64,000 nt of DNA from Escherichia coli (GCF_002854065.1 NZ_CP024147.1); one strand, 5' to 3'; shown: positions 33,256 to 44,571, counted from the first letter of the stretch. Numbers and translations are program-made. Notes: generated from the letters alone by a model not told the origin.

Positions 33256-34410
33256 ATGCCAGAAAATTACACCCCTGCTGCCGCCGCAACCGGTACATGG
33301 ACTGAAGAAGAGATCCGCCATCAGCCTCGCGCATGGATCCGTTCACTCACCAACATCGACGCGCTACGTTCCGCGCTCAATAACTTCCTTGAACCGTTAC
33401 TGCGCAAAGAGAATCTGCGGATCATCCTGACCGGAGCCGGAACCTCAGCATTTATCGGTGACATCATCGCACCGTGGCTCGCCAGCCATACCGGTAAAAA
33501 CTTCAGCGCTGTACCAACCACCGATCTGGTCACTAATCCGATGGACTACCTGAACCCAGCCCATCCGCTGCTGTTGATCTCCTTCGGTCGATCCGGCAAC
33601 AGCCCGGAAAGCGTCGCAGCCGTGGAACTGGCAAATCAATTTGTACCGGAATGCTATCACCTGCCGATTACCTGCAACGAAGCGGGCGCTCTTTACCAAA
33701 ACGCGATCAACAGCGATAACGCGTTTGCCCTGCTGATGCCCGCAGAAACGCACGATCGCGGCTTTGCGATGACCAGCAGCATTACCACCATGATGGCCAG
33801 CTGCCTCGCGGTTTTCGCACCTGAGACGATCAACAGCCAAACCTTCCGCGACGTGGCGGATCGTTGCCAGGCGATCCTGACCTCACTGGGCGATTTCAGC
33901 GAAGGTGTGTTTGGTTACGCACCATGGAAACGGATCGTTTATCTCGGCAGCGGTGGCTTACAGGGCGCAGCACGCGAGTCGGCGCTGAAAGTGCTGGAAC
34001 TGACGGCGGGTAAACTGGCGGCCTTTTATGATTCTCCAACCGGATTCCGTCATGGACCAAAATCGCTGGTCGATGACGAAACGCTGGTGGTGGTATTTGT
34101 CTCCAGCCACCCTTACACCCGTCAGTATGATCTTGATCTGCTGGCTGAACTCCGCCGTGACAACCAGGCAATGCGCGTAATCGCCATCGCCGCGGAAAGC
34201 AGCGACATCGTCGCTGCCGGTCCACATATTATCCTGCCACCGTCACGTCACTTTATCGACGTTGAGCAGGCATTTTGCTTCCTGATGTACGCCCAGACGT
34301 TTGCACTGATGCAGTCGCTGCACATGGGCAATACGCCGGATACCCCATCAGCCAGTGGCACCGTTAACCGCGTGGTGCAAGGCGTAATCATTCATCCATG
34401 GCAGGCATAA
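33256..34410 (+). CDS. agaS: SIS-domain sugar-phosphate isomerase/deaminase (galactosamine-6-phosphate)
   Basis: 384-aa ORF at the agaS position. Confidence 0.92.
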   Translation: MPENYTPAAAATGTWTEEEIRHQPRAWIRSLTNIDALRSALNNFLEPLLRKENLRIILTGAGTSAFIGDIIAPWLASHTGKNFSAVPTTDLVTNPMDYLNPAHPLLLISFGRSGNSPESVAAVELANQFVPECYHLPITCNEAGALYQNAINSDNAFALLMPAETHDRGFAMTSSITTMMASCLAVFAPETINSQTFRDVADRCQAILTSLGDFSEGVFGYAPWKRIVYLGSGGLQGAARESALKVLELTAGKLAAFYDSPTGFRHGPKSLVDDETLVVVFVSSHPYTRQYDLDLLAELRRDNQAMRVIAIAAESSDIVAAGPHIILPPSRHFIDVEQAFCFLMYAQTFALMQSLHMGNTPDTPSASGTVNRVVQGVIIHPWQA

Positions 34411-35283
<873 letters not shown>

Positions 35284-35449
35284 TCATTAGTTTTTTATGA
35301 TTTATCCCAATGTACTTCCCGATTAATATCGGGGAGTGCCTTAATGGAAAAGGAGATGACTAAACCTTAATAAATACATCAGTACAATATTGCAACAATA
35401 ATATATTTAAAAAAATTATATTATTCAACTTTATGGTGAGGATTACACA

Positions 35450-35926
35450 ATGAGCAGTCCAAATATTCTCTTAACCCGTATTGATAACCGTCTGGTTCAC
35501 GGTCAGGTTGGCGTGACCTGGACATCCACCATCGGTGCGAATCTGCTGGTAGTCGTGGATGATGTTGTCGCTAACGATGATATTCAACAGAAATTAATGG
35601 GTATTACCGCAGAAACCTACGGCTTTGGCATTCGTTTCTTTACTATCGAAAAAACCATTAACGTCATCGGCAAAGCTGCACCGCATCAGAAGATCTTCCT
35701 GATTTGCCGTACGCCACAAACGGTACGTAAATTGGTAGAAGGTGGCATTGACCTGAAAGATGTCAACGTCGGCAATATGCATTTCTCGGAAGGGAAAAAG
35801 CAAATCAGCAGTAAAGTTTATGTCGATGACCAGGATCTCACGGACTTACGTTTTATTAAACAACGTGGCGTGAATGTTTTCATTCAGGACGTCCCTGGCG
35901 ATCAAAAAGAACAAATCCCTGACTAA
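35450..35926 (+). CDS. agaB: PTS EIIB (galactosamine)
   Basis: 158-aa ORF with the same N-terminal RIDNRLVHGQVGV pattern as agaV. Confidence 0.92.
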   Translation: MSSPNILLTRIDNRLVHGQVGVTWTSTIGANLLVVVDDVVANDDIQQKLMGITAETYGFGIRFFTIEKTINVIGKAAPHQKIFLICRTPQTVRKLVEGGIDLKDVNVGNMHFSEGKKQISSKVYVDDQDLTDLRFIKQRGVNVFIQDVPGDQKEQIPD

Positions 35927-36140
35927 ATCTAAAATCGCCTTAATATTGGTTTGAGGTAATAAAAATGCATGAAATAACCCTACTTCAGGGATTATCCCTG
36001 GCGGCGTTAGTTTTCGTTCTGGGGATTGATTTTTGGCTGGAAGCCTTATTTTTATTCCGCCCGATAATCGTTTGTACCCTAACTGGGTGATGCTGCCAAC
36101 TTACTGATTTAGTGTATGATGGTGTTTTTGAGGTGCTCCA

Positions 36141-36416
36141 GTGGCTTCTGTTTCTATCAGCTGTCCCTCCTGTTCAGCTACTGACGGGGTGGTGCGTAAC
36201 GGCAAAAGCACCGCCGGACATCAGCGCTATCTCTGCTCTCACTGCCGTAAAACATGGCAACTGCAGTTCACTTACACCGCTTCTCAACCCGGTACGCACC
36301 AGAAAATCATTGATATGGCCATGAATGGCGTTGGATGCCGGGCAACTGCCCGCATTATGGGCGTTGGCCTCAACACGATTTTACGTCACTTAAAAAACTC
36401 AGGCCGCAGTCGGTAA
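36141..36416 (+). CDS. insA: IS1 InsA
   Basis: 91-aa [46 protein letters not shown]..., matching IS1 InsA from memory. Confidence 0.9.
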
Positions 36417-36838
36417 CCTCGCGCATACAGCCGGGCAGTGACGTCATCGTCTGCGCGGAAATGGACGAACAGTGGGGCTATGTCGGGGCTAAATCGCGCC
36501 AGCGCTGGCTGTTTTACGCGTATGACAGTCTCCGGAAGACGGTTGTTGCGCACGTATTCGGTGAACGCACTATGGCGACGCTGGGGCGTCTTATGAGCCT
36601 GCTGTCACCCTTTGACGTGGTGATATGGATGACGGATGGCTGGCCGCTGTATGAATCCCGCCTGAAGGGAAAGCTGCACGTAATCAGCAAGCGATATACG
36701 CAGCGAATTGAGCGGCATAACCTGAATCTGAGGCAGCACCTGGCACGGCTGGGACGGAAGTCGCTGTCGTTCTCAAAATCGGTGGAGCTGCATGACAAAG
36801 TCATCGGGCATTATCTGAACATAAAACACTATCAATAA
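36335..36838 (+). CDS. insB: IS1 InsB (made as InsAB fusion by -1 frameshift)
   Basis: 167-aa ORF in the -1 frame relative to insA; slippery motif TTAAAAAAC at 36390..36398. Confidence 0.85.
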
Positions 36839-37534
36839 GTTGGAGTCATTACCCCCTAACTGGCGCTATTCTCGGTGATATTCAGACTGGCTTAATTACC
36901 GGTGGTCTGACAGAGTTGGCTTTCGCCGGATTAACCCCTGCAGGTGGTGTTCAGCCGCCCAACCCGATTATGGCGGGTCTGATGACCACCGTCATTGCAT
37001 GGTCTACGGGCGTTGATGCCAAAACAGCAATTGGTCTTGGCCTGCCGTTTAGTTTGTTAATGCAGTACGTCATTCTGTTCTTCTATTCCGCTTTCTCATT
37101 ATTTATGACCAAAGCCGATAAATGCGCGAAAGAGGCGGATACGGCAGCGTTTTCCCGACTTAACTGGACAACGATGCTCATCGTCGCTTCAGCGTATGCG
37201 GTGATTGCTTTCCTCTGTACTTACCTGGCACAAGGGGCGATGCAGGCGCTGGTGAAAGCGATGCCCGCCTGGTTGACCCACGGCTTTGAAGTGGCTGGCG
37301 GTATTCTGCCTGCCGTTGGTTTTGGCTTGCTGCTGCGCGTGATGTTCAAAGCACAATATATCCCTTACCTGATCGCCGGCTTTCTGTTTGTTTGCTACAT
37401 CCAGGTCAGCAACCTGTTGCCGGTTGCCGTACTGGGCGCAGGCTTTGCGGTGTATGAGTTTTTCAATGCGAAATCCCGGCAGCAAGCGCAACCGCAGCCC
37501 GTTGCCAGTAAAAATGAAGAAGAGGACTACAGCA

Positions 37535-38326
37535 ATGGGATCTGAAATCAGTAAAAAAGATATCACCCGTCTGGGCTTTCGTTCGTCGCTGCTGCAAGCG
37601 AGCTTTAACTACGAAAGGATGCAGGCGGGCGGTTTTACCTGGGCGATGTTGCCGATCCTGAAAAAGATTTATAAGGATGACAAACCGGGCCTAAGCGCAG
37701 CGATGAAAGATAACCTCGAATTTATTAATACCCACCCGAATCTGGTCGGATTCCTGATGGGGTTATTAATTTCGATGGAAGAAAAAGGAGAAAACCGCGA
37801 CACCATTAAAGGCCTCAAAGTGGCACTGTTTGGCCCAATCGCCGGGATTGGCGATGCGATTTTCTGGTTTACTTTGTTGCCGATTATGGCGGGAATTTGC
37901 TCATCATTTGCCAGCCAGGGAAACCTGCTGGGGCCGATTCTATTTTTCGCCGTTTACCTGCTTATCTTTTTCCTGCGCGTCGGCTGGACCCACGTCGGTT
38001 ATTCAGTCGGCGTGAAGGCGATCGATAAAGTGCGAGAGAACTCGCAGATGATTGCTCGCTCGGCAACCATCCTCGGGATCACGGTAATCGGCGGGCTGAT
38101 CGCTTCGTATGTGCATATTAACGTGGTGACATCGTTTGCCATCGACAGTACCCACAGCGTTGCGCTGCAGCAGGATTTCTTCGATAAAGTCTTCCCGAAC
38201 ATTTTACCGATGGCCTACACCCTGCTGATGTATTACTTCCTGCGGGTGAAAAAAGCGCATCCGGTGCTGTTAATCGGCGTGACTTTTGTGCTCTCTATTG
38301 TTTGTTCCGCATTCGGCATTTTGTAA
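37535..38326 (+). CDS. agaD: PTS EIID (galactosamine)
   Basis: Track ORF from 37388; start set to ATG 37535 (MGSEISKKDITRLGF) giving 263 aa; overlaps the agaC stop. Confidence 0.92.
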   Translation: MGSEISKKDITRLGFRSSLLQASFNYERMQAGGFTWAMLPILKKIYKDDKPGLSAAMKDNLEFINTHPNLVGFLMGLLISMEEKGENRDTIKGLKVALFGPIAGIGDAIFWFTLLPIMAGICSSFASQGNLLGPILFFAVYLLIFFLRVGWTHVGYSVGVKAIDKVRENSQMIARSATILGITVIGGLIASYVHINVVTSFAIDSTHSVALQQDFFDKVFPNILPMAYTLLMYYFLRVKKAHPVLLIGVTFVLSIVCSAFGIL

Positions 38327-39094
38327 ATGGAACGAGGCACTGCGTCTGGCGGTGCCTCTTTACTTAAGGAATTTCATCCTGTGCAAACCCTTCAGCAAGT
38401 TGAAAACTATACGGCGTTAAGTGAACGTGCCAGCGAATATTTATTGGCCGTGATCCGTAGCAAACCGGATGCCGTGATTTGCCTGGCGACCGGAGCCACG
38501 CCATTACTGACGTATCATTATCTGGTAGAAAAAATCCACCAGCAGCAGGTTGATGTCAGCCAGCTGACCTTCGTCAAGCTCGACGAATGGGTGGATCTGC
38601 CATTAACTATGCCTGGCACCTGCGAAACTTTCCTGCAACAGCATATCGTGCAGCCGCTGGGGCTACGTGAAGACCAGCTCATCAGCTTTCGCTCCGAAGA
38701 GATAAATGAGACAGAGTGCGAACGGGTAACGAACCTGATTGCGCGCAAAGGCGGTCTGGATTTATGCGTTCTCGGATTGGGGAAAAACGGTCATCTTGGG
38801 CTGAACGAACCGGGAGAAAACCTGCAACCGGCCTGCCATATCAGTCAACTTGATGCCAGAACACAGCAACATGAGATGTTAAAAACCGCGGGTCGCCCCG
38901 TGACTCGTGGGATCACCTTAGGCCTGAAGGATATTCTCAATGCCCGCGAGGTTTTGTTACTGGTGACTGGCGAAGGAAAGCAGGATGCGACAGAACGTTT
39001 TCTCACGGCTAAAGTCTCCACCGCTATCCCGGCTTCGTTTTTATGGCTGCATAACCATTTCACATGCGTGATTGATGAGATGTGTCGTCGTTAA
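38327..39094 (+). CDS. agaI: Galactosamine-6-phosphate deaminase/isomerase (NagB-like)
   Basis: 255-aa ORF; the extreme C-terminus may differ from the K-12 protein I recall. Confidence 0.88.
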   Translation: MERGTASGGASLLKEFHPVQTLQQVENYTALSERASEYLLAVIRSKPDAVICLATGATPLLTYHYLVEKIHQQQVDVSQLTFVKLDEWVDLPLTMPGTCETFLQQHIVQPLGLREDQLISFRSEEINETECERVTNLIARKGGLDLCVLGLGKNGHLGLNEPGENLQPACHISQLDARTQQHEMLKTAGRPVTRGITLGLKDILNAREVLLLVTGEGKQDATERFLTAKVSTAIPASFLWLHNHFTCVIDEMCRR

Positions 39095-39217
39095 CATCCC
39101 CCTTAGCCCGGAAAAATAAGAAAAGTGCTCATGAGTTTTGAGCACTTCGTTCCGGTTCAGTATGAACGTCCTCCGTTATTATGCCATCACAATGTAAACC
39201 TAAAGGTTGACAAAAAG

Positions 39218-39577
39218 ATGGTGAAAAATCAGACTAACAAAAAACGTGATAAAAATCTTCCAGTCATGCTGTTAAGTGTGGCCAGAAAGGAATTGTTTGA
39301 TCTTAGTGCAATCGATCGAGCGGAATTCATTGCTGCTATTGACGATTTCGAAGAGTTAGGTCCCTGCTCTTCCCTGGTGAATACCGAAAAAGTTCAAGGG
39401 GATATGTATGAAATTAAAACACATAGTCAGAGCCATTGGTTAAGGGGTTTTTATTTTCACTTTCATCAAGGGCTATGGGTCATCACACATATCTTTGCTA
39501 AAAAAACGAACAAAACGCCTAAAGCCAACATCGAGTTAGGTTTAGCACGTTATAAGGCCTTACTTTCGACAAACTAA
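39218..39577 (+). CDS. Putative type II toxin, RelE/ParE superfamily (Gp49/HigB-like)
   Basis: Track ORF 39125..39577 (GTG start inside a hairpin); likely start ATG 39218 (119 aa) or 39266 (103 aa); C-terminal motif WVITHIFAKKTNKTPKANIELGLARYK resembles the phage Gp49/HigB-like toxin family; about 38% GC by eye. Confidence 0.55.
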   Translation: MVKNQTNKKRDKNLPVMLLSVARKELFDLSAIDRAEFIAAIDDFEELGPCSSLVNTEKVQGDMYEIKTHSQSHWLRGFYFHFHQGLWVITHIFAKKTNKTPKANIELGLARYKALLSTN

Positions 39578-39600
39578 GCAAGCTTCCAGGAGAAATAGAA

Positions 39601-39903
39601 ATGAAGAAAAATAACGAGTTACATCACTGGGAAGACGTGAAAACAGAATTACTTAAGGACGAAGCAACCGCTAATGCTCTTGATGTTGTTGTACAACGCA
39701 AAGCGGTTCTTTCCCAACTCGTGGAAAAACGCAAAGCCCTCAATCTGAGCCAAACTGCCGTGGCGAAGCAACTTGGTGTTACCCGACAAGCGGTGAGTAA
39801 ATTTGAAAAAGGAGAAAGTTCACCAACATTAGATGTTGTTTTTAGCTATGCAAATGCTATCGGCATCGATCTGTTCGGCTCACTAAAAAGACTGATTGTT
39901 TAG
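39601..39903 (+). CDS. Putative antitoxin, XRE-family helix-turn-helix DNA-binding protein
   Basis: 100-aa ORF 24 bp downstream of the toxin with AGGAG-type ribosome-binding site; helix-turn-helix LSQTAVAKQLGVTRQAVSKFEKGESSPTLD. Confidence 0.6.
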   Translation: MKKNNELHHWEDVKTELLKDEATANALDVVVQRKAVLSQLVEKRKALNLSQTAVAKQLGVTRQAVSKFEKGESSPTLDVVFSYANAIGIDLFGSLKRLIV

Positions 39904-39945
39904 CAGGCGGCCCCAGGGTTCTTCAAACGGGGCCACGGAGAGATA

Positions 39946-40809
39946 TCACTCTCCCTGCTGCTCCAGCGCATACTTATACAGCGCATTTTTCTTCACGCCG
40001 TGAATTTCTGCGGCCAGCGCCGCCGCTTTTTTCAGCGGCAGTTCTGCCTGTAGCAGCGCCAGCGTGCGCAGGGCATCGGCGGGTAAGTCTTCTTCCTGTG
40101 CTTTATGACCTTCGACAATCAGCACCATTTCGCCTTTGCGGCGGTTTTCATCTTCCTTTACCCACGCCAGCAGCTCGCCAACGGGCGCGCCGTGAATGGT
40201 TTCCCAGGTTTTGGTTAGCTCACGCGCCAGAACCACATAACGGGATTCGCCTAATACCGCAACGATATCTTCCAGGCTATCTAACAGACGGTGGGTAGAT
40301 TCATAAAAAATCAGCGTGCGCGGCTCCGCTTCAATGGCTTTTAGCGCATCACGGCGGCCTTTTGATTTGGCAGGTAAAAAGCCTTCGTAACAGAAACGGT
40401 CAGAGGGTAAACCTGCGGCGCTTAACGCAGTGATAGCAGCACACGGCCCGGGTAGCGGCACCACGCGAATCCCCGCTTCACGGCAGGTACGCACCAGATG
40501 GTAGCCAGGATCGTTAATTAGCGGCGTTCCGGCATCGGAAACCAGCGCAATGTTTTGCCCCTCTTGCAGCTTCGCCAGCAGCGTTTCGGCTTTTTGTTGT
40601 TCGTTATGGTCGTGCAGTGCAAACAACCGGGCATTAATCCCAAAATGTTGCAGCAATAAACCGGTGTGACGAGTATCCTCGGCGGCAATCAGATCAACGG
40701 CCTGTAATACCTCTAACGCACGCTGGGTGATATCCGCCAGATTGCCGATTGGCGTCGGTACAATGTAAAGCTGGCCCTGAGAATTATCCGCCGATTGGTG
40801 TTGTTTCAT
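39946..40809 (-). CDS. rsmI: 16S rRNA 2-prime-O-ribose C1402 methyltransferase
   Basis: 287-codon ORF beginning [28 protein letters not shown]. Confidence 0.93.
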
Positions 40810-40873
40810 TGTGTCGTCCGTATTGCCGATTTAATATTGAGCATTGCGTAAAAAAAATATCACTGGATACATT

Positions 40874-42910
40874 ATGGTACCCTCAACATTTTCTCGTTTG
40901 AAAGCCGCGCGTTGTCTGCCTGTTGTTCTGGCAGCCCTGATTTTCGCCGGTTGTGGCACCCATACTCCCGATCAGTCCACTGCTTATATGCAGGGCACGG
41001 CGCAGGCTGATTCTGCCTTTTATCTTCAGCAGATGCAGCAAAGCTCTGATGATACCAGGATCAACTGGCAATTACTCGCCATTCGTGCACTGGTGAAAGA
41101 AGGTAAAACCGGGCAGGCGGTTGAGTTGTTTAACCAACTACCGCAAGAACTGAATGATTCTCAGCGTCGCGAGAAAACACTGCTGGCGGTAGAGATTAAA
41201 CTGGCGCAGAAAGATTTTGCTGGCGCGCAAAACTTGCTGGCGAAAATTACACCCGCCGATTTAGAACAAAACCAGCAAGCCCGTTACTGGCAGGCAAAAA
41301 TCGATGCCAGCCAGGGGCGTCCTTCCATTGATTTACTGCGCGCGTTAATTGCTCAGGAACCGCTGCTTGGCGCGAAAGAAAAACAGCAGAATATTGATGC
41401 CACCTGGCAGGCGCTCTCCTCCATGACTCAGGAGCAGGCGAATACGCTGGTGATCAACGCCGACGAAAATATTCTGCAAGGCTGGCTGGATCTGCAGCGC
41501 GTCTGGTTTGATAACCGTAACGATCCCGACATGATGAAAGCCGGGATCGCCGACTGGCAGAAACGTTATCCGAACAACCCGGGCGCGAAAATGCTGCCAA
41601 CGCAGTTGGTTAACGTAAAAGCGTTTAAACCAGCCTCGACCAACAAAATCGCCCTGCTGTTGCCACTGAATGGCCAGGCAGCGGTATTTGGTCGCACTAT
41701 TCAGCAAGGCTTTGAAGCGGCGAAAAATATCGGCACTCAGCCAGTGGCAGCTCAGGTAGCTGCCGCACCTGCCGCAGACGTAGCAGAACAACCTCAACCG
41801 CAAACCGTGGATGGCGTTGCCAGCCCGGCACAAGCCTCGGTTAGCGATCTGACCGGTGAACAGCCTGCAGCCCAGCCGGTGCCTGTAAGCGCCCCGGCGA
41901 CAAGCACCGCAGCGGTAAGCGCACCCGCAAATCCATCCGCAGAGCTGAAAATCTACGATACCTCATCACAACCACTTAGCCAGATCTTAAGCCAGGTTCA
42001 GCAGGATGGCGCGAGTATTGTGGTCGGTCCGTTGCTGAAAAATAACGTTGAAGAGTTGCTGAAGAGCAACACTCCGCTGAACGTACTGGCACTGAACCAG
42101 CCGGAGAATATCGAAAATCGCGTCAATATTTGTTACTTCGCGCTTTCACCGGAAGACGAAGCGCGCGATGCAGCGCGTCATATTCGTGACCAGGGTAAAC
42201 AAGCGCCGCTGGTGCTGATCCCACGCAGTTCATTGGGCGATCGCGTAGCCAATGCGTTTGCGCAAGAGTGGCAGAAACTGGGCGGCGGCACCGTTCTGCA
42301 ACAAAAATTTGGTTCCACCAGCGAATTACGCGCGGGTGTTAACGGCGGTTCTGGTATCGCTTTAACGGGTACCCCGATTACTCTCAGAGCGACAACCGAC
42401 TCCGGCATGACGACCAACAATCCAACGCTGCAAACCACGCCAACCGATGACCAGTTCACCAATAATGGCGGTCGTGTCGATGCGGTGTACATTGTGGCAA
42501 CGCCGGGTGAAATCGCTTTTATCAAACCGATGATCGCCATGCGTAACGGTAGCCAGAGCGGTGCAACGCTGTACGCCAGCTCCCGCAGTGCGCAAGGGAC
42601 CGCTGGCCCGGATTTCCGACTGGAGATGGAAGGCTTGCAGTACAGCGAAATCCCGATGCTGGCAGGCGGTAATCTGCCGTTAATGCAGCAGGCGCTCAGC
42701 GCGGTGAACAACGATTATTCGCTGGCTCGCATGTATGCGATGGGCGTTGATGCCTGGTCGTTGGCAAATCATTTCTCACAAATGCGCCAGGTTCAGGGTT
42801 TTGAAATCAACGGTAATACCGGAAGCCTGACGGCTAACCCGGATTGCGTGATTAACAGGAAGTTATCATGGCTACAGTACCAACAAGGTCAGGTAGTCCC
42901 CGCCAGTTAA
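40874..42910 (+). CDS. lpoA: Penicillin-binding protein 1A activator lipoprotein
   Basis: Track ORF from 40844; start set to ATG 40874 ([28 protein letters not shown], lipobox) giving 678 aa. Confidence 0.93.
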
Positions 42911-43263
42911 CCACCAAACAGACCGGCGATGCGTGGGAAGTACAAGCGCGTCGCTGGCTGGAAGGCAAAGGACTGCGATTTGTCGCCGCTAACGTGAACG
43001 AGCGTGGCGGCGAGATCGATCTGATAATGCGTGAAGGCCGGACCACCGTTTTTGTCGAGGTGCGTTACCGCCGTTCTGCGCTTTATGGCGGCGCGGCAGC
43101 CAGTGTGACCTGCAGCAAACAACACAAATTATTACAGACTGCCCGCTTGTGGCTCGCGCGTCATAATGGGAGTTTTGATACTGTGGATTGCCGGTTCGAT
43201 GTGGTAGCCTTCACCGGGAATGAGGTTGAGTGGATTAAGGATGCCTTTAATGACCACTCATAA
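42868..43263 (+). CDS. yraN: UPF0102 family protein
   Basis: 131-aa ORF overlapping the lpoA 3-prime end by 43 nt in another frame. Confidence 0.88.
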
Positions 43264-43282
43264 TTAAGGTTTAAGGATTAGC

Positions 43283-43873
43283 GTGCAAGAAAGAATTAAA
43301 GCTTGCTTCACTGAAAGCATTCAAACTCAAATTGCGGCGGCAGAGGCGCTTCCGGATGCCATCTCCCGTGCGGCCATGACGCTGGTTCAGTCTCTGCTCA
43401 ATGGCAACAAAATCCTCTGTTGTGGTAATGGAACTTCCGCTGCCAATGCACAGCATTTTGCTGCCAGCATGATCAACCGTTTCGAAACGGAGCGGCCCAG
43501 CTTACCTGCCATTGCACTAAATACTGATAATGTTGTCTTAACGGCGATTGCCAACGATCGCTTACATGATGAAGTGTATGCAAAACAGGTGCGGGCGCTG
43601 GGTCATGCGGGAGATGTATTGTTAGCCATTTCCACCCGTGGCAACAGCCGCGATATTGTAAAAGCGGTAGAAGCTGCCGTTACGCGTGATATGACCATTG
43701 TGGCATTAACCGGCTATGACGGCGGTGAACTTGCAGGTTTGTTAGGGCCACAGGATGTGGAAATCCGCATTCCTTCGCATCGTAGTGCTCGCATTCAGGA
43801 AATGCATATGCTGACGGTAAATTGCCTGTGCGATCTGATCGATAACACGCTTTTCCCTCACCAGGATGATTAA
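43283..43873 (+). CDS. diaA: DnaA initiator-associating protein (SIS domain)
   Basis: 196-aa ORF with GTG start ([16 protein letters not shown]...). Confidence 0.93.
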
Positions 43874-43882
43874 GGAGAATAC

Positions 43883-44458
43883 ATGAAGGCATTATCGCCA
43901 ATCGCAGTCCTTATTTCCGCGCTGCTGTTGCAAGGTTGTGTTGCCGCTGCCGTAGTGGGTACTGCTGCTGTGGGTACCAAAGCCGCAACTGACCCACGCA
44001 GTGTCGGCACCCAGGTGGACGATGGTACCCTGGAAGTGCGCGTGAACAGCGCATTGTCGAAAGACGAACAGATTAAGAAAGAAGCGCGTATTAATGTAAC
44101 GGCCTATCAGGGCAAAGTGCTGCTGGTTGGGCAGTCACCAAACGCTGAACTTTCGGCTCGCGCCAAACAGATTGCTATGGGCGTAGACGGTGCCAACGAA
44201 GTGTATAACGAGATTCGTCAGGGCCAGCCGATTGGTCTGGGCGAAGCGTCTAACGATACGTGGATCACCACCAAAGTGCGTTCGCAGCTCTTAACCAGCG
44301 ACCTGGTGAAATCGTCCAACGTGAAAGTGACCACCGAAAACGGTGAAGTGTTCCTGATGGGGCTGGTGACTGAACGTGAAGCGAAAGCGGCGGCAGATAT
44401 TGCCAGCCGGGTGAGCGGCGTGAAGCGAGTAACTACGGCGTTTACGTTTATTAAATAG
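43883..44458 (+). CDS. dolP: Outer membrane lipoprotein with BON domains
   Basis: 191-aa ORF with lipobox LLLQGC. Confidence 0.93.
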   Translation: MKALSPIAVLISALLLQGCVAAAVVGTAAVGTKAATDPRSVGTQVDDGTLEVRVNSALSKDEQIKKEARINVTAYQGKVLLVGQSPNAELSARAKQIAMGVDGANEVYNEIRQGQPIGLGEASNDTWITTKVRSQLLTSDLVKSSNVKVTTENGEVFLMGLVTEREAKAAADIASRVSGVKRVTTAFTFIK

Positions 44459-44470
44459 CAGCCCCTTGTA

Positions 44471-44547
44471 ATGCCTGATGCGACGCTTGCCGCGTCTTAT
44501 CAGGCCTACAACGATGCAAACCGTAGGTCGGATAAGGCGTTTACGCC
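44471..44547. repeat. REP elements
   Basis: ATGCCTGATGCGACGCTTGCCGCGTCTTATCAGGCCTAC and GTAGGTCGGATAAGGCGTTTACGCCGCATCCGACATG. Confidence 0.65.
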
Positions 44548-44571
44548 GCATCCGACATGTTTTCCCTCAAA

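What the first reader, a model, noticed from the sequence alone, without database searches (positions are those of the whole stretch)
39095..39945. Locus between agaI and rsmI is about 0.85 kb and lacks the yraHIJK fimbrial operon
In K-12 as I remember it, a chaperone-usher fimbrial operon (yraH, yraI, yraJ, yraK; several kb) lies between agaI and rsmI. Here only 851 bp separate the agaI stop from the rsmI stop, and it is filled by the toxin-antitoxin-like pair. That makes this a variable region with an alternative occupant, typical of a replacement or ancestral-versus-inserted polymorphism.
Basis: partly seen in the sequence, partly recalled or inferred. Interest (0 to 1): 0.5.

Follow-up and report, generated by a model that had tools for sequence, protein, structure and literature searches.

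The report
Rare toxin-antitoxin allele at agaI-rsmI junction
Where E. coli K-12 carries the yraHIJK fimbrial operon, this strain carries a small intact toxin-antitoxin gene pair, the rarest of four interchangeable inserts at this site; this is ordinary hotspot biology, now mapped to the base.

Summary
agaI ends at 39094 and the rsmI stop codon starts at 39946. The 851 bp between them hold no fimbrial sequence, whereas K-12 has 5,484 bp with yraHIJK at the same place.

The interval carries an intact two-gene operon. The first gene is a gp49/HigB-type RelE-superfamily toxin (39218-39577; the database start at 39131 is probably too far upstream). The second is an XRE helix-turn-helix, HigA-like antitoxin (39601-39903). 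Both are under strong purifying selection.

Among 5,426 complete E. coli genomes the junction has four mutually exclusive states:
- yraHIJK: 3,523 genomes
- a bare 49-bp hairpin spacer: 1,823
- a LysR regulator plus MBL-fold hydrolase: 64
- this toxin-antitoxin pair: 12

E. albertii and a second Escherichia-like lineage carry the same 49-bp spacer, so the bare state is ancestral. Both yraHIJK and the toxin-antitoxin pair are derived replacements. The LysR/MBL state keeps remnants of the toxin-antitoxin pair at both ends and so derives from it.

Orthologous pairs lie next to rsmI in Pseudocitrobacter and other enterobacteria. Within E. coli the cassette is nearly invariant on divergent flanks, which points to spread by homologous recombination through conserved neighbours. 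This is a new member of a known kind, of modest interest.

The parts
38327..39094 (+). agaI (galactosamine-6-phosphate isomerase), 255 aa. It forms the left border of the variable site.
   Evidence: ORF. RefSeq annotation of the 100%-identical strain 100416 is. K-12 AgaI is 251 aa because the yra-state divergence starts inside the gene.
39052..39952 (.). Segment with no homology to K-12: 901 bp here against 5,484 bp with yraHIJK in K-12.
   Evidence: blastn of window against NC_000913: 36854-39051 at 98.9% and 39953-41474 at 99.0%, with nothing in between.
39095..39945 (.). The 851-bp occupant, lying stop codon to stop codon. It takes the place of the ancestral 49-bp hairpin spacer.
   Evidence: Junction alignments. 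The full-length occupant is present in 12 of 5,426 genomes.
39123..39147 (.). Perfect 9-bp inverted repeat AAGTGCTCA-N7-TGAGCACTT. On the minus strand it reads as an intrinsic terminator followed by a T-run. It could instead be an operator.
   Evidence: The arms are conserved and the loop varies in E. coli, L023, L024 and L026. Its function is inferred.
39190..39217 (+). Block upstream of the toxin gene that is conserved across genera. It includes TTGACA at 39207-39212. A TATTAT motif lies at 39177-39182.
   Evidence: Cross-genus homology begins at 39190. The consensus promoter scan found no site at its threshold, so the promoter assignment is unresolved.
39218..39577 (+). Toxin gene, gp49/HigB-like member of the RelE/ParE superfamily, 119 aa. 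Alternative starts are 39131 (RefSeq/PGAP, 148 aa) and 39266 (103 aa).
   Evidence: Pfam PF05973 matches at E = 1.5e-20 over the full model. Homologues begin at the position equivalent to 39218. The AlphaFold2 model has pLDDT 83, and its best PDB fold matches are S. pneumoniae HigB and M. tuberculosis HigB1. By sequence, M. tuberculosis HigB1 matches at E = 7e-4. dN/dS is about 0.04-0.05.
39601..39903 (+). Antitoxin gene, XRE-type helix-turn-helix protein, HigA-like, 100 aa. AGGAG lies upstream of its ATG.
   Evidence: Pfam HTH_3 matches at E = 6.8e-16. NCBIfam gives only sub-threshold antitoxin-family hits. The best PDB sequence match is S. pneumoniae HigA 6af3_B at E = 1.3e-8 over residues 3-89. 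dN/dS is about 0.1.
39880..39945 (.). Right-hand piece also retained in the LysR/MBL state. It comprises the last 7 codons of the antitoxin gene, its stop codon and the GC hairpin.
   Evidence: O145 locus L019 matches window 39880-39945 at 98.5%. The sequences are shown.
39909..39934 (.). GC-rich hairpin GGCCCC-N14-GGGGCC between the convergent antitoxin and rsmI genes. No T-run follows it on either strand.
   Evidence: Sequence. Conserved in L005, L006 and L026. The terminator scan did not call it.
39946..40809 (-). rsmI (16S rRNA C1402 2'-O-methyltransferase), 287 aa. It forms the right border and is the constant neighbour of this toxin-antitoxin family.
   Evidence: It is 84-89% nucleotide-identical across genera.

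Best explanation
The interval is one allele of a four-state replacement hotspot between the convergent genes agaI and rsmI.

The ancestral Escherichia state is a 49-bp hairpin spacer. In different lineages that spacer was replaced by the yraHIJK fimbrial operon or by this 851-bp cassette. A later event replaced the coding part of the cassette with a LysR regulator plus an MBL-fold hydrolase.

The cassette is an intact bicistronic type II toxin-antitoxin operon with the toxin gene first. The toxin has a gp49/HigB-like RelE fold. I infer that it is a ribosome-dependent mRNA endonuclease. I also infer that the XRE helix-turn-helix HigA-like antitoxin binds and neutralises it and probably represses the operon.

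The cassette has no mobility genes of its own. It moves between strains, and apparently between genera, by homologous recombination that uses the conserved neighbours as arms, rsmI-lpoA above all.

Shown here: the anatomy, the population frequencies, the polarity of the states, purifying selection, and the recombination tract. Inferred: the toxin's activity, neutralisation by the antitoxin, and autoregulation.
For: Census of 5,426 complete E. coli genomes: toxin-antitoxin state 12, yra 3,523, LysR/MBL 64, empty 1,823.

Polarity:
- E. albertii has agaI, 49 bp, rsmI in all 21 places retrieved among the 24 contigs read. Its spacer differs from E. coli empty spacers at only 1-3 positions.
- A second Escherichia-like lineage (agaI 89% identical) has a homologous 50-bp spacer.
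- Citrobacter farmeri is also empty at this junction.

The LysR/MBL state derives from the toxin-antitoxin state:
- It keeps the equivalents of window 39095-39217 and 39880-39945, including the last 7 antitoxin codons.
- The left breakpoint lies directly upstream of the toxin ATG.
- Its left allele matches that of toxin-antitoxin strain L017 at all but one or no positions.

Gene identity: PF05973 at E = 1.5e-20 and HTH_3 at E = 6.8e-16. The toxin fold matches solved HigB structures, and the antitoxin matches solved HigA. Published work describes gp49 toxin modules as toxin-first and the toxins as ribosome-dependent mRNases (PMC11980606, PMC5906591).

Selection: toxin pN is 0.065-0.105 against pS 0.63-0.84; antitoxin dN/dS is about 0.1.

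Recombination: the toxin-antitoxin coding region differs at 0-3 of 686 positions among E. coli strains whose agaI and rsmI differ by 2-5%. Strain L016 shows a tract of about 1.1 kb (38951-40050) of window-like sequence inside B2-like flanks.

Other genera: orthologues with 73-85% amino-acid identity lie next to rsmI in Pseudocitrobacter and other enterobacterial contigs. Two of them carry an rsmI 3'-end fragment upstream of the cassette, which in the one complete locus forms a direct repeat with rsmI and looks like a scar of homology-facilitated illegitimate recombination.
Against: - No experiment supports toxicity, neutralisation or autoregulation.
- The consensus scan found no sigma-70 promoter in the interval.
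- The toxin start codon is ambiguous among 39131, 39218 and 39266.
- No donor lineage with more than 85% identity was found, so the source of the E. coli cassette is unknown.
- Two left-intergenic alleles differ by about 10% over 39019-39192 while the adjoining coding region is nearly identical. A single recent introduction does not explain this.
- All 73-85% orthologues lie next to rsmI. A functional tie could explain that as well as a recombination anchor does.
Confidence: 0.8

Rival explanations
1. The toxin-antitoxin pair is the ancestral occupant of the agaI-rsmI junction. It would have been inherited vertically since before Escherichia split from Pseudocitrobacter-like genera, and 99.8% of E. 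coli would have lost it.
For: The order agaI, toxin-antitoxin, rsmI recurs in several non-E. coli lineages. Nucleotide divergence of the cassette (76-84%) is similar to that of the flanks.
Against: E. albertii and a second Escherichia-like lineage carry the same 49-50-bp spacer as empty E. coli, so that spacer predates E. coli. The toxin-antitoxin coding region is almost invariant in E. coli, while flanking synonymous divergence is 6-9%. The Pseudocitrobacter locus L005 and locus L027 keep an old rsmI 3' end upstream of the cassette, which marks an insertion.
Confidence: 0.06
2. The cassette is the remnant of a site-specific integrative element (prophage or integrative conjugative element) that targets the 3' end of rsmI.
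For: In Pseudocitrobacter locus L005, direct repeats of 47 and 34 nt from the rsmI 3' end flank the cassette. A 63-65% identical homologue in Pantoea lies inside an integrative conjugative element. The Pfam family is named after a phage protein, and the toxin matches phrog_2523.
Against: There is no integrase, no tRNA gene and no flanking repeat in the window. No relative above 40% amino-acid identity was found in 72,556 plasmid records or 50,697 phage records. In E. coli the boundaries coincide with the two stop codons. Transfer within E. coli shows homologous-recombination tracts.
Confidence: 0.08
3. This strain simply deleted yraHIJK, and the toxin-antitoxin pair is what was left behind.
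For: None beyond the smaller size of the interval.
Against: K-12 has no sequence homologous to the 851 bp, and the window has no yra remnant. The ends of agaI and rsmI here match the empty-state and E. albertii alleles, not the yra-state alleles.
Confidence: 0.01
4. The two ORFs are decaying or non-functional leftovers, not a working toxin-antitoxin module.
For: The E. coli toxin lacks the 11-12-residue C-terminal tail of its closest relatives, and its stop codon no longer overlaps the antitoxin start. No promoter passed the consensus scan. The state is very rare.
Against: Both ORFs were annotated as intact coding sequences in the seven toxin-antitoxin-state genomes whose annotation was inspected, and in the orthologous loci. 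dN/dS is 0.04-0.1. The Pfam model is matched end to end. Twenty-three columns are invariant across 18 homologues, including H73, R76, Y79, H81, H91 and K96.
Confidence: 0.05

Closest known systems
Streptococcus pneumoniae HigBA (PDB 6af3/6af4), a gp49-type HigB with an XRE-HTH HigA
   Same: It gives the best fold match for the toxin (Foldseek E = 3.9e-5, TM about 0.6). It also gives the best sequence match for the antitoxin, over nearly its full length (E = 1.3e-8). The gene order is toxin first, as here.
   Different: Toxin identity is only 18-20%. The host is a Gram-positive bacterium. The window toxin has a lysine-rich N-terminal extension that the model predicts with low confidence.
Mycobacterium tuberculosis HigB1 (Rv1955; PDB 7awk, and ribosome-bound 7nbu)
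   Same: It belongs to the same Pfam family and is the best sequence match among solved toxins (E = 7e-4). The fold TM-score is 0.65-0.67. The solved complex shows the toxin on the ribosome with its mRNA target.
   Different: It is part of a three-component toxin-antitoxin-chaperone system, and no chaperone gene is present here. Identity is 25-27%. The catalytic Lys95 mutated in those structures appears to align with the invariant His91 here. That alignment is my own reading and is not verified.
gp49-domain HigBA/Tad-Ata modules of plasmids (for example Acinetobacter baumannii pAB120 HigBA2)
   Same: The toxin has a gp49 domain, the operon is in reverse order (toxin first), and the antitoxin is an XRE-HTH protein (PMC5906591).
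   Different: Those modules are plasmid-borne and stabilise the plasmid. This one is chromosomal, and its closest plasmid relatives are below 40% identical.
E. coli K-12 agaI-yraHIJK-rsmI locus
   Same: The flanking genes and chromosomal position are the same, with 98.9-99.0% identity outside 39052-39952.
   Different: K-12 carries a 5.5-kb chaperone-usher operon instead of the toxin-antitoxin pair. It also has divergent 3' ends for agaI (251 aa) and rsmI (286 aa). The uneven distribution of YraJ across E. coli is already published (PMC5717340).

Membership tests
gp49/HigB-like toxins (Pfam PF05973) of the RelE/ParE superfamily | Significant match to the family profile over the whole domain | tested here: met
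   PF05973 at E = 1.5e-20, model positions 1-90 of 90.
gp49/HigB-like toxins (Pfam PF05973) of the RelE/ParE superfamily | RelE/HigB fold: beta strand, two helices, four-stranded antiparallel sheet, C-terminal helix | tested here: met
   The AlphaFold2 model has pLDDT 83.2 and shows that order of elements. The top Foldseek PDB hits are all HigB, RelE or YoeB toxins, with TM up to 0.67.
gp49/HigB-like toxins (Pfam PF05973) of the RelE/ParE superfamily | Toxin-first bicistronic operon with a downstream XRE-HTH antitoxin | tested here: met
   Toxin at 39218-39577, then antitoxin at 39601-39903 on the same strand. HTH_3 matches at E = 6.8e-16. The family's gene order is given as toxin/antitoxin in PMC11980606 and PMC5906591.
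gp49/HigB-like toxins (Pfam PF05973) of the RelE/ParE superfamily | Conserved catalytic residues | tested here: inconclusive
   H73, R76, Y79, H81, H91 and K96 are invariant in 18 homologues. The site mutated in M. tuberculosis HigB1 K95A appears to align with H91. I could not confirm the residue numbering.
gp49/HigB-like toxins (Pfam PF05973) of the RelE/ParE superfamily | Ribosome-dependent mRNA cleavage, and growth arrest that the antitoxin relieves | not testable with these tools
   This needs expression and cleavage assays.
HigA-type XRE-HTH antitoxins | XRE helix-turn-helix domain, plus similarity to a solved HigA beyond the HTH | tested here: met
   HTH_3. Residues 3-89 align with residues 2-85 of S. 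pneumoniae HigA 6af3_B at E = 1.3e-8. The NCBIfam antitoxin models score below their curated cut-offs.
Site-specific integrative element (genomic island or prophage remnant) | Integrase or recombinase gene, attachment-site direct repeats, often a tRNA target | tested here: not met
   The interval holds only the two ORFs. No flanking direct repeats were found in the window. No tRNA gene lies in 33000-46000.
yraHIJK chaperone-usher fimbrial operon | Usher, chaperone and fimbrial subunit genes between agaI and rsmI | tested here: not met
   tblastn of the four K-12 Yra proteins finds nothing in the window at E <= 1e-3.
Known anti-phage defence systems (PADLOC) | Match to a defence-system protein model | tested here: inconclusive
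   The toxin gives a weak partial hit to NsnC (E = 1.5e-5, 51 residues). The antitoxin hits only generic HTH models.

The most novel reading that the evidence does not exclude
The cassette may be functionally tied to rsmI rather than merely parked beside it.

All seven independent lineages whose toxins are 73-85% identical keep the cassette convergent with rsmI, although the left neighbour changes (agaI, agaD or gatR). No canonical terminator separates rsmI from the antitoxin gene. A conserved minus-strand terminator lies at the far end of the cassette.

Read-through from rsmI could therefore produce an antisense RNA across the whole toxin-antitoxin operon. Alternatively, the HigB-like toxin could sense the 16S C1402 methylation state that RsmI sets in the ribosomal P site.
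Probability: 0.06. Interest if true: 0.6.

Novelty: new member of a known kind. Interest (0 to 1): 0.28.

Why it matters
The result turns a remembered difference from K-12 into a fully resolved locus history. It covers four alleles, their frequencies in 5,426 genomes, base-level breakpoints, and a polarity set by outgroups.

It gives a clean natural example of cassettes being swapped at a hotspot without any mobility genes, using conserved neighbours as recombination arms.

It also flags an uncharacterised chromosomal subfamily of gp49/HigB toxin-antitoxin pairs that is always found beside rsmI, and a probable mis-called start codon in RefSeq.

None of this changes current understanding of toxin-antitoxin systems or of genome plasticity.

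Tried and rejected
- I first favoured the toxin-antitoxin pair as the ancestral occupant, because it is syntenic in other genera with flank-like divergence. I dropped this after E. albertii and a second Escherichia-like contig showed the same 49-50-bp spacer as empty E. coli.
- I searched for close relatives on plasmids and phages. None exceeded 40% identity.
- The genome-contig scan returned one locus only, a Pseudocitrobacter metagenome-assembled genome.
- The promoter scan found no site at its threshold.
- Rfam found nothing meaningful; the only hit was snoR35 at E = 0.74.
- The 49-bp spacer query undercounted the empty state (1,104), because megablast needs a 28-bp exact word. A junction query gave 1,823.
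- The hairpins next to rsmI in K-12, in empty E. coli and in Pseudocitrobacter look alike. They are too short for a homology claim, so I make none.
- The chaperone-usher review PMC3559732 does not name Yra in its searchable text.
- I did not find the window strain itself. Strains 100416 and CUWW06 are identical across the interval but lack the IS1 in agaC.

Full report
**Observation.** The window is E. coli. agaI occupies 38327-39094 (+) and rsmI occupies 39946-40809 (-), so 851 bp (39095-39945) separate the two stop codons. In K-12 MG1655 the annotated order is agaI, yraH, yraI, yraJ, yraK, rsmI. Direct alignment shows 98.9% identity up to window 39051 and 99.0% from 39953 onward. In between, K-12 has 5,484 bp and the window has 901 bp. 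No Yra protein finds anything in the interval (best E = 0.76) or in the whole window at E <= 1e-3, and the two spacers share no DNA similarity.

**What fills the interval.** Two same-strand ORFs fill it.
- The first ORF matches Pfam Gp49 (PF05973) at E = 1.5e-20 over the complete model.
- RefSeq calls it a RelE/ParE-family toxin of 148 aa starting at 39131. Homologues from Pseudocitrobacter, Pantoea, Yersinia and Erwinia begin at the position equivalent to ATG 39218, with a lysine-rich N-terminus.
- The 87 nt upstream of 39218 are also present in genomes that have no toxin gene. I therefore take 39218-39577 (119 aa) as the gene.
- In three relatives only the Met equivalent to 39266 is usable, so the start remains uncertain.
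- An AlphaFold2 model built on 18 homologues has pLDDT 83 and shows the RelE/HigB order of secondary-structure elements. Its best PDB matches are S. pneumoniae HigB, M. tuberculosis HigB1, V. cholerae HigB2 and RelE proteins. By sequence, M. tuberculosis HigB1 matches at E = 7e-4.
- The second ORF (39601-39903, 100 aa) has an HTH_3 domain at E = 6.8e-16. It aligns over nearly its whole length with the solved S. pneumoniae HigA at E = 1.3e-8.
- Published surveys describe gp49 toxins as ribosome-dependent mRNases encoded ahead of their antitoxin (PMC11980606 and PMC5906591).
- Against orthologues from other genera, toxin pN is 0.065-0.105 against pS 0.63-0.84, and antitoxin dN/dS is about 0.1. 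Both genes are therefore maintained by selection.

**Non-coding features.**
- A perfect 9-bp inverted repeat lies at 39123-39147. Its arms are conserved and its loop varies across genera. On the minus strand it reads as an intrinsic terminator. It could equally be an operator.
- The block 39190-39217, with TTGACA at 39207-39212, is conserved in every orthologous locus.
- The consensus promoter scan found nothing at its threshold, so the promoter is unassigned.
- A GC hairpin (39909-39934) without a T-run lies between the antitoxin gene and rsmI.
- Rfam and tRNA searches were negative.

**Population census.** Among 5,426 complete E. coli genomes:

| State of the agaI-rsmI junction | Genomes |
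|---|---|
| yraHIJK DNA present (3,264 with at least 80% of it) | 3,523 |
| agaI and rsmI separated by about 49 bp | 1,823 |
| LysR regulator plus MBL-fold hydrolase | 64 |
| the full 851-bp cassette | 12 |

The four states sum to 5,422. The 64 LysR/MBL genomes are the ones that matched only the first 122 nt of the interval.

**Breakpoints.**
- The toxin-antitoxin and empty states share agaI and rsmI right up to both stop codons and differ only in what lies between.
- The yra state also replaces the last 43 nt of agaI and 7 nt of rsmI. This gives K-12 a 251-aa AgaI and a 286-aa RsmI.
- No direct repeats flank the cassette in the window.

**Polarity.**
- E. albertii, whose flanks are about 91% identical to the window, has agaI, 49 bp, rsmI in all 21 places retrieved among the 24 contigs read. 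Its spacer differs from E. coli empty spacers at 1-3 positions.
- A second Escherichia-like metagenomic contig (agaI 89% identical) has a homologous 50-bp spacer.
- Citrobacter farmeri is also empty at this junction.
- The bare spacer is therefore ancestral in Escherichia, and yraHIJK and the toxin-antitoxin pair are both derived replacements.
- The LysR/MBL state is in turn derived from the toxin-antitoxin state. It retains the equivalents of 39095-39217 and 39880-39945, including the last seven antitoxin codons. Its left breakpoint lies directly upstream of the toxin ATG. Its divergent left allele matches that of toxin-antitoxin strain 23S01245-7 (L017) at all but one or no positions.

**How the cassette moves.**
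- Within E. coli the toxin-antitoxin coding region differs at 0-3 of 686 positions between strains whose agaI and rsmI differ by 2-5%.
- Strain 2018-05-2CC (L016) shows about 1.1 kb of window-like sequence (38951-40050) embedded in B2-like flanks.
- This is the signature of transfer by homologous recombination through the flanking genes.

**Orthologues outside E. coli.**
- Pairs with 73-85% amino-acid identity lie beside rsmI in several contigs: agaI, cassette, rsmI in L006-L008, L023 and L024/L025; agaD, cassette, rsmI in L026; gatR, cassette, rsmI in L005 and probably L027, whose contig ends inside the antitoxin gene.
- L005 and L006 are Pseudocitrobacter.
- The two gatR-linked loci keep a 37-51-nt fragment of an old rsmI 3' end upstream of the cassette. 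In L005, the one complete locus, it forms direct repeats of 47 and 34 nt with rsmI. This is the scar expected from homology-facilitated illegitimate recombination anchored in rsmI-lpoA.
- More distant homologues (57-65% identity) lie elsewhere: in an integrative conjugative element in Pantoea, and between deaD and a luciferase-like gene in Yersinia.
- Plasmid and phage collections hold nothing above 40% identity.

**Unexplained.**
- Two left-intergenic alleles differ by about 10% over 39019-39192, yet they adjoin an almost identical coding region.
- No donor lineage close enough to be the source of the E. coli cassette was found.
- The constant linkage to rsmI may be no more than a recombination anchor. 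A functional tie is not excluded.

**Comparison with what is known.** The variable distribution of yraJ among E. coli lineages is published (PMC5717340). So is yra expression restricted to phylogroup A/B1 isolates (PMC4128348). The toxin-antitoxin proteins are already in RefSeq under generic names. In the four literature searches I ran I found no description of the four-state locus or of this rsmI-linked subfamily of toxin-antitoxin pairs.

**Verdict.** The cassette is a new, uncharacterised member of the gp49/HigB plus HTH toxin-antitoxin family, sitting in a well-behaved replacement hotspot. Interest is modest.

Noticed in passing
window 36087-36853: An IS1 copy interrupts agaC, and a 10-bp repeat (CCCTAACTGG) flanks the insertion. 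The strains that are otherwise identical here lack it: 100416 has an intact agaC, and CUWW06 has an IS1 between kbaY and agaB instead. The window strain therefore probably cannot import galactosamine through this PTS.
   Followed up: partly
L003 6123-8357; L018; L019 (E. coli LysR/MBL state): A third occupant of the junction is found in 64 genomes, including O145:H28 and O169:H41. It consists of a divergently transcribed LysR regulator and an MBL-fold metallo-hydrolase, about 2.2 kb in all. Remnants of the toxin-antitoxin cassette border it on both sides.
   Followed up: partly
L019 2016-5040 (E. coli O145 RM9872): In O145:H28 the genes agaB to agaI are replaced by malX-like and malY/patB-like genes plus a truncated PTS IIB pseudogene. 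The left border of the hotspot is therefore also rearranged in that lineage.
   Followed up: no
L005 1945-2008 and 2861-2939 (Pseudocitrobacter metagenome-assembled genome): Direct repeats of 47 and 34 nt derived from the rsmI 3' end flank the toxin-antitoxin cassette. The left copy has a 15-nt deletion and lies next to what looks like the old rsmI terminator hairpin. L027 has a similar 37-nt fragment upstream of its cassette.
   Followed up: yes
window 39131-39217: The RefSeq/PGAP toxin start at 39131 adds 29 residues encoded by DNA that is also present in genomes without the toxin gene. This stretch is not an ORF in other genera, so the start is probably over-extended.
   Followed up: yes
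L024 about 975-995; L023; L027: In three orthologous loci the lysine-rich N-terminal extension of the toxin cannot be translated from the ATG equivalent to 39218; in L024 an extra A in an A-run shifts the frame. The downstream codons nevertheless remain conserved, which hints at a constraint on the DNA or RNA, or at an alternative start.
   Followed up: partly
window 39019-39192 compared with L017, L003 and L018: Two alleles of the agaI 3' end and left intergenic region differ by about 10%, far more than typical E. coli divergence. The adjacent toxin-antitoxin coding region is nearly identical between them.
   Followed up: partly
L026 1-921: One orthologous contig lacks agaI altogether: agaD is followed by about 220 bp and then the toxin-antitoxin cassette.
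   Followed up: no
L032 (GCA_014857645.1): A yra-state genome in which agaS, kbaY, agaC, agaD, the yra chaperone and the yra usher are all split into fragments. This looks like widespread pseudogenisation, as in a Shigella-like lineage.
   Followed up: no
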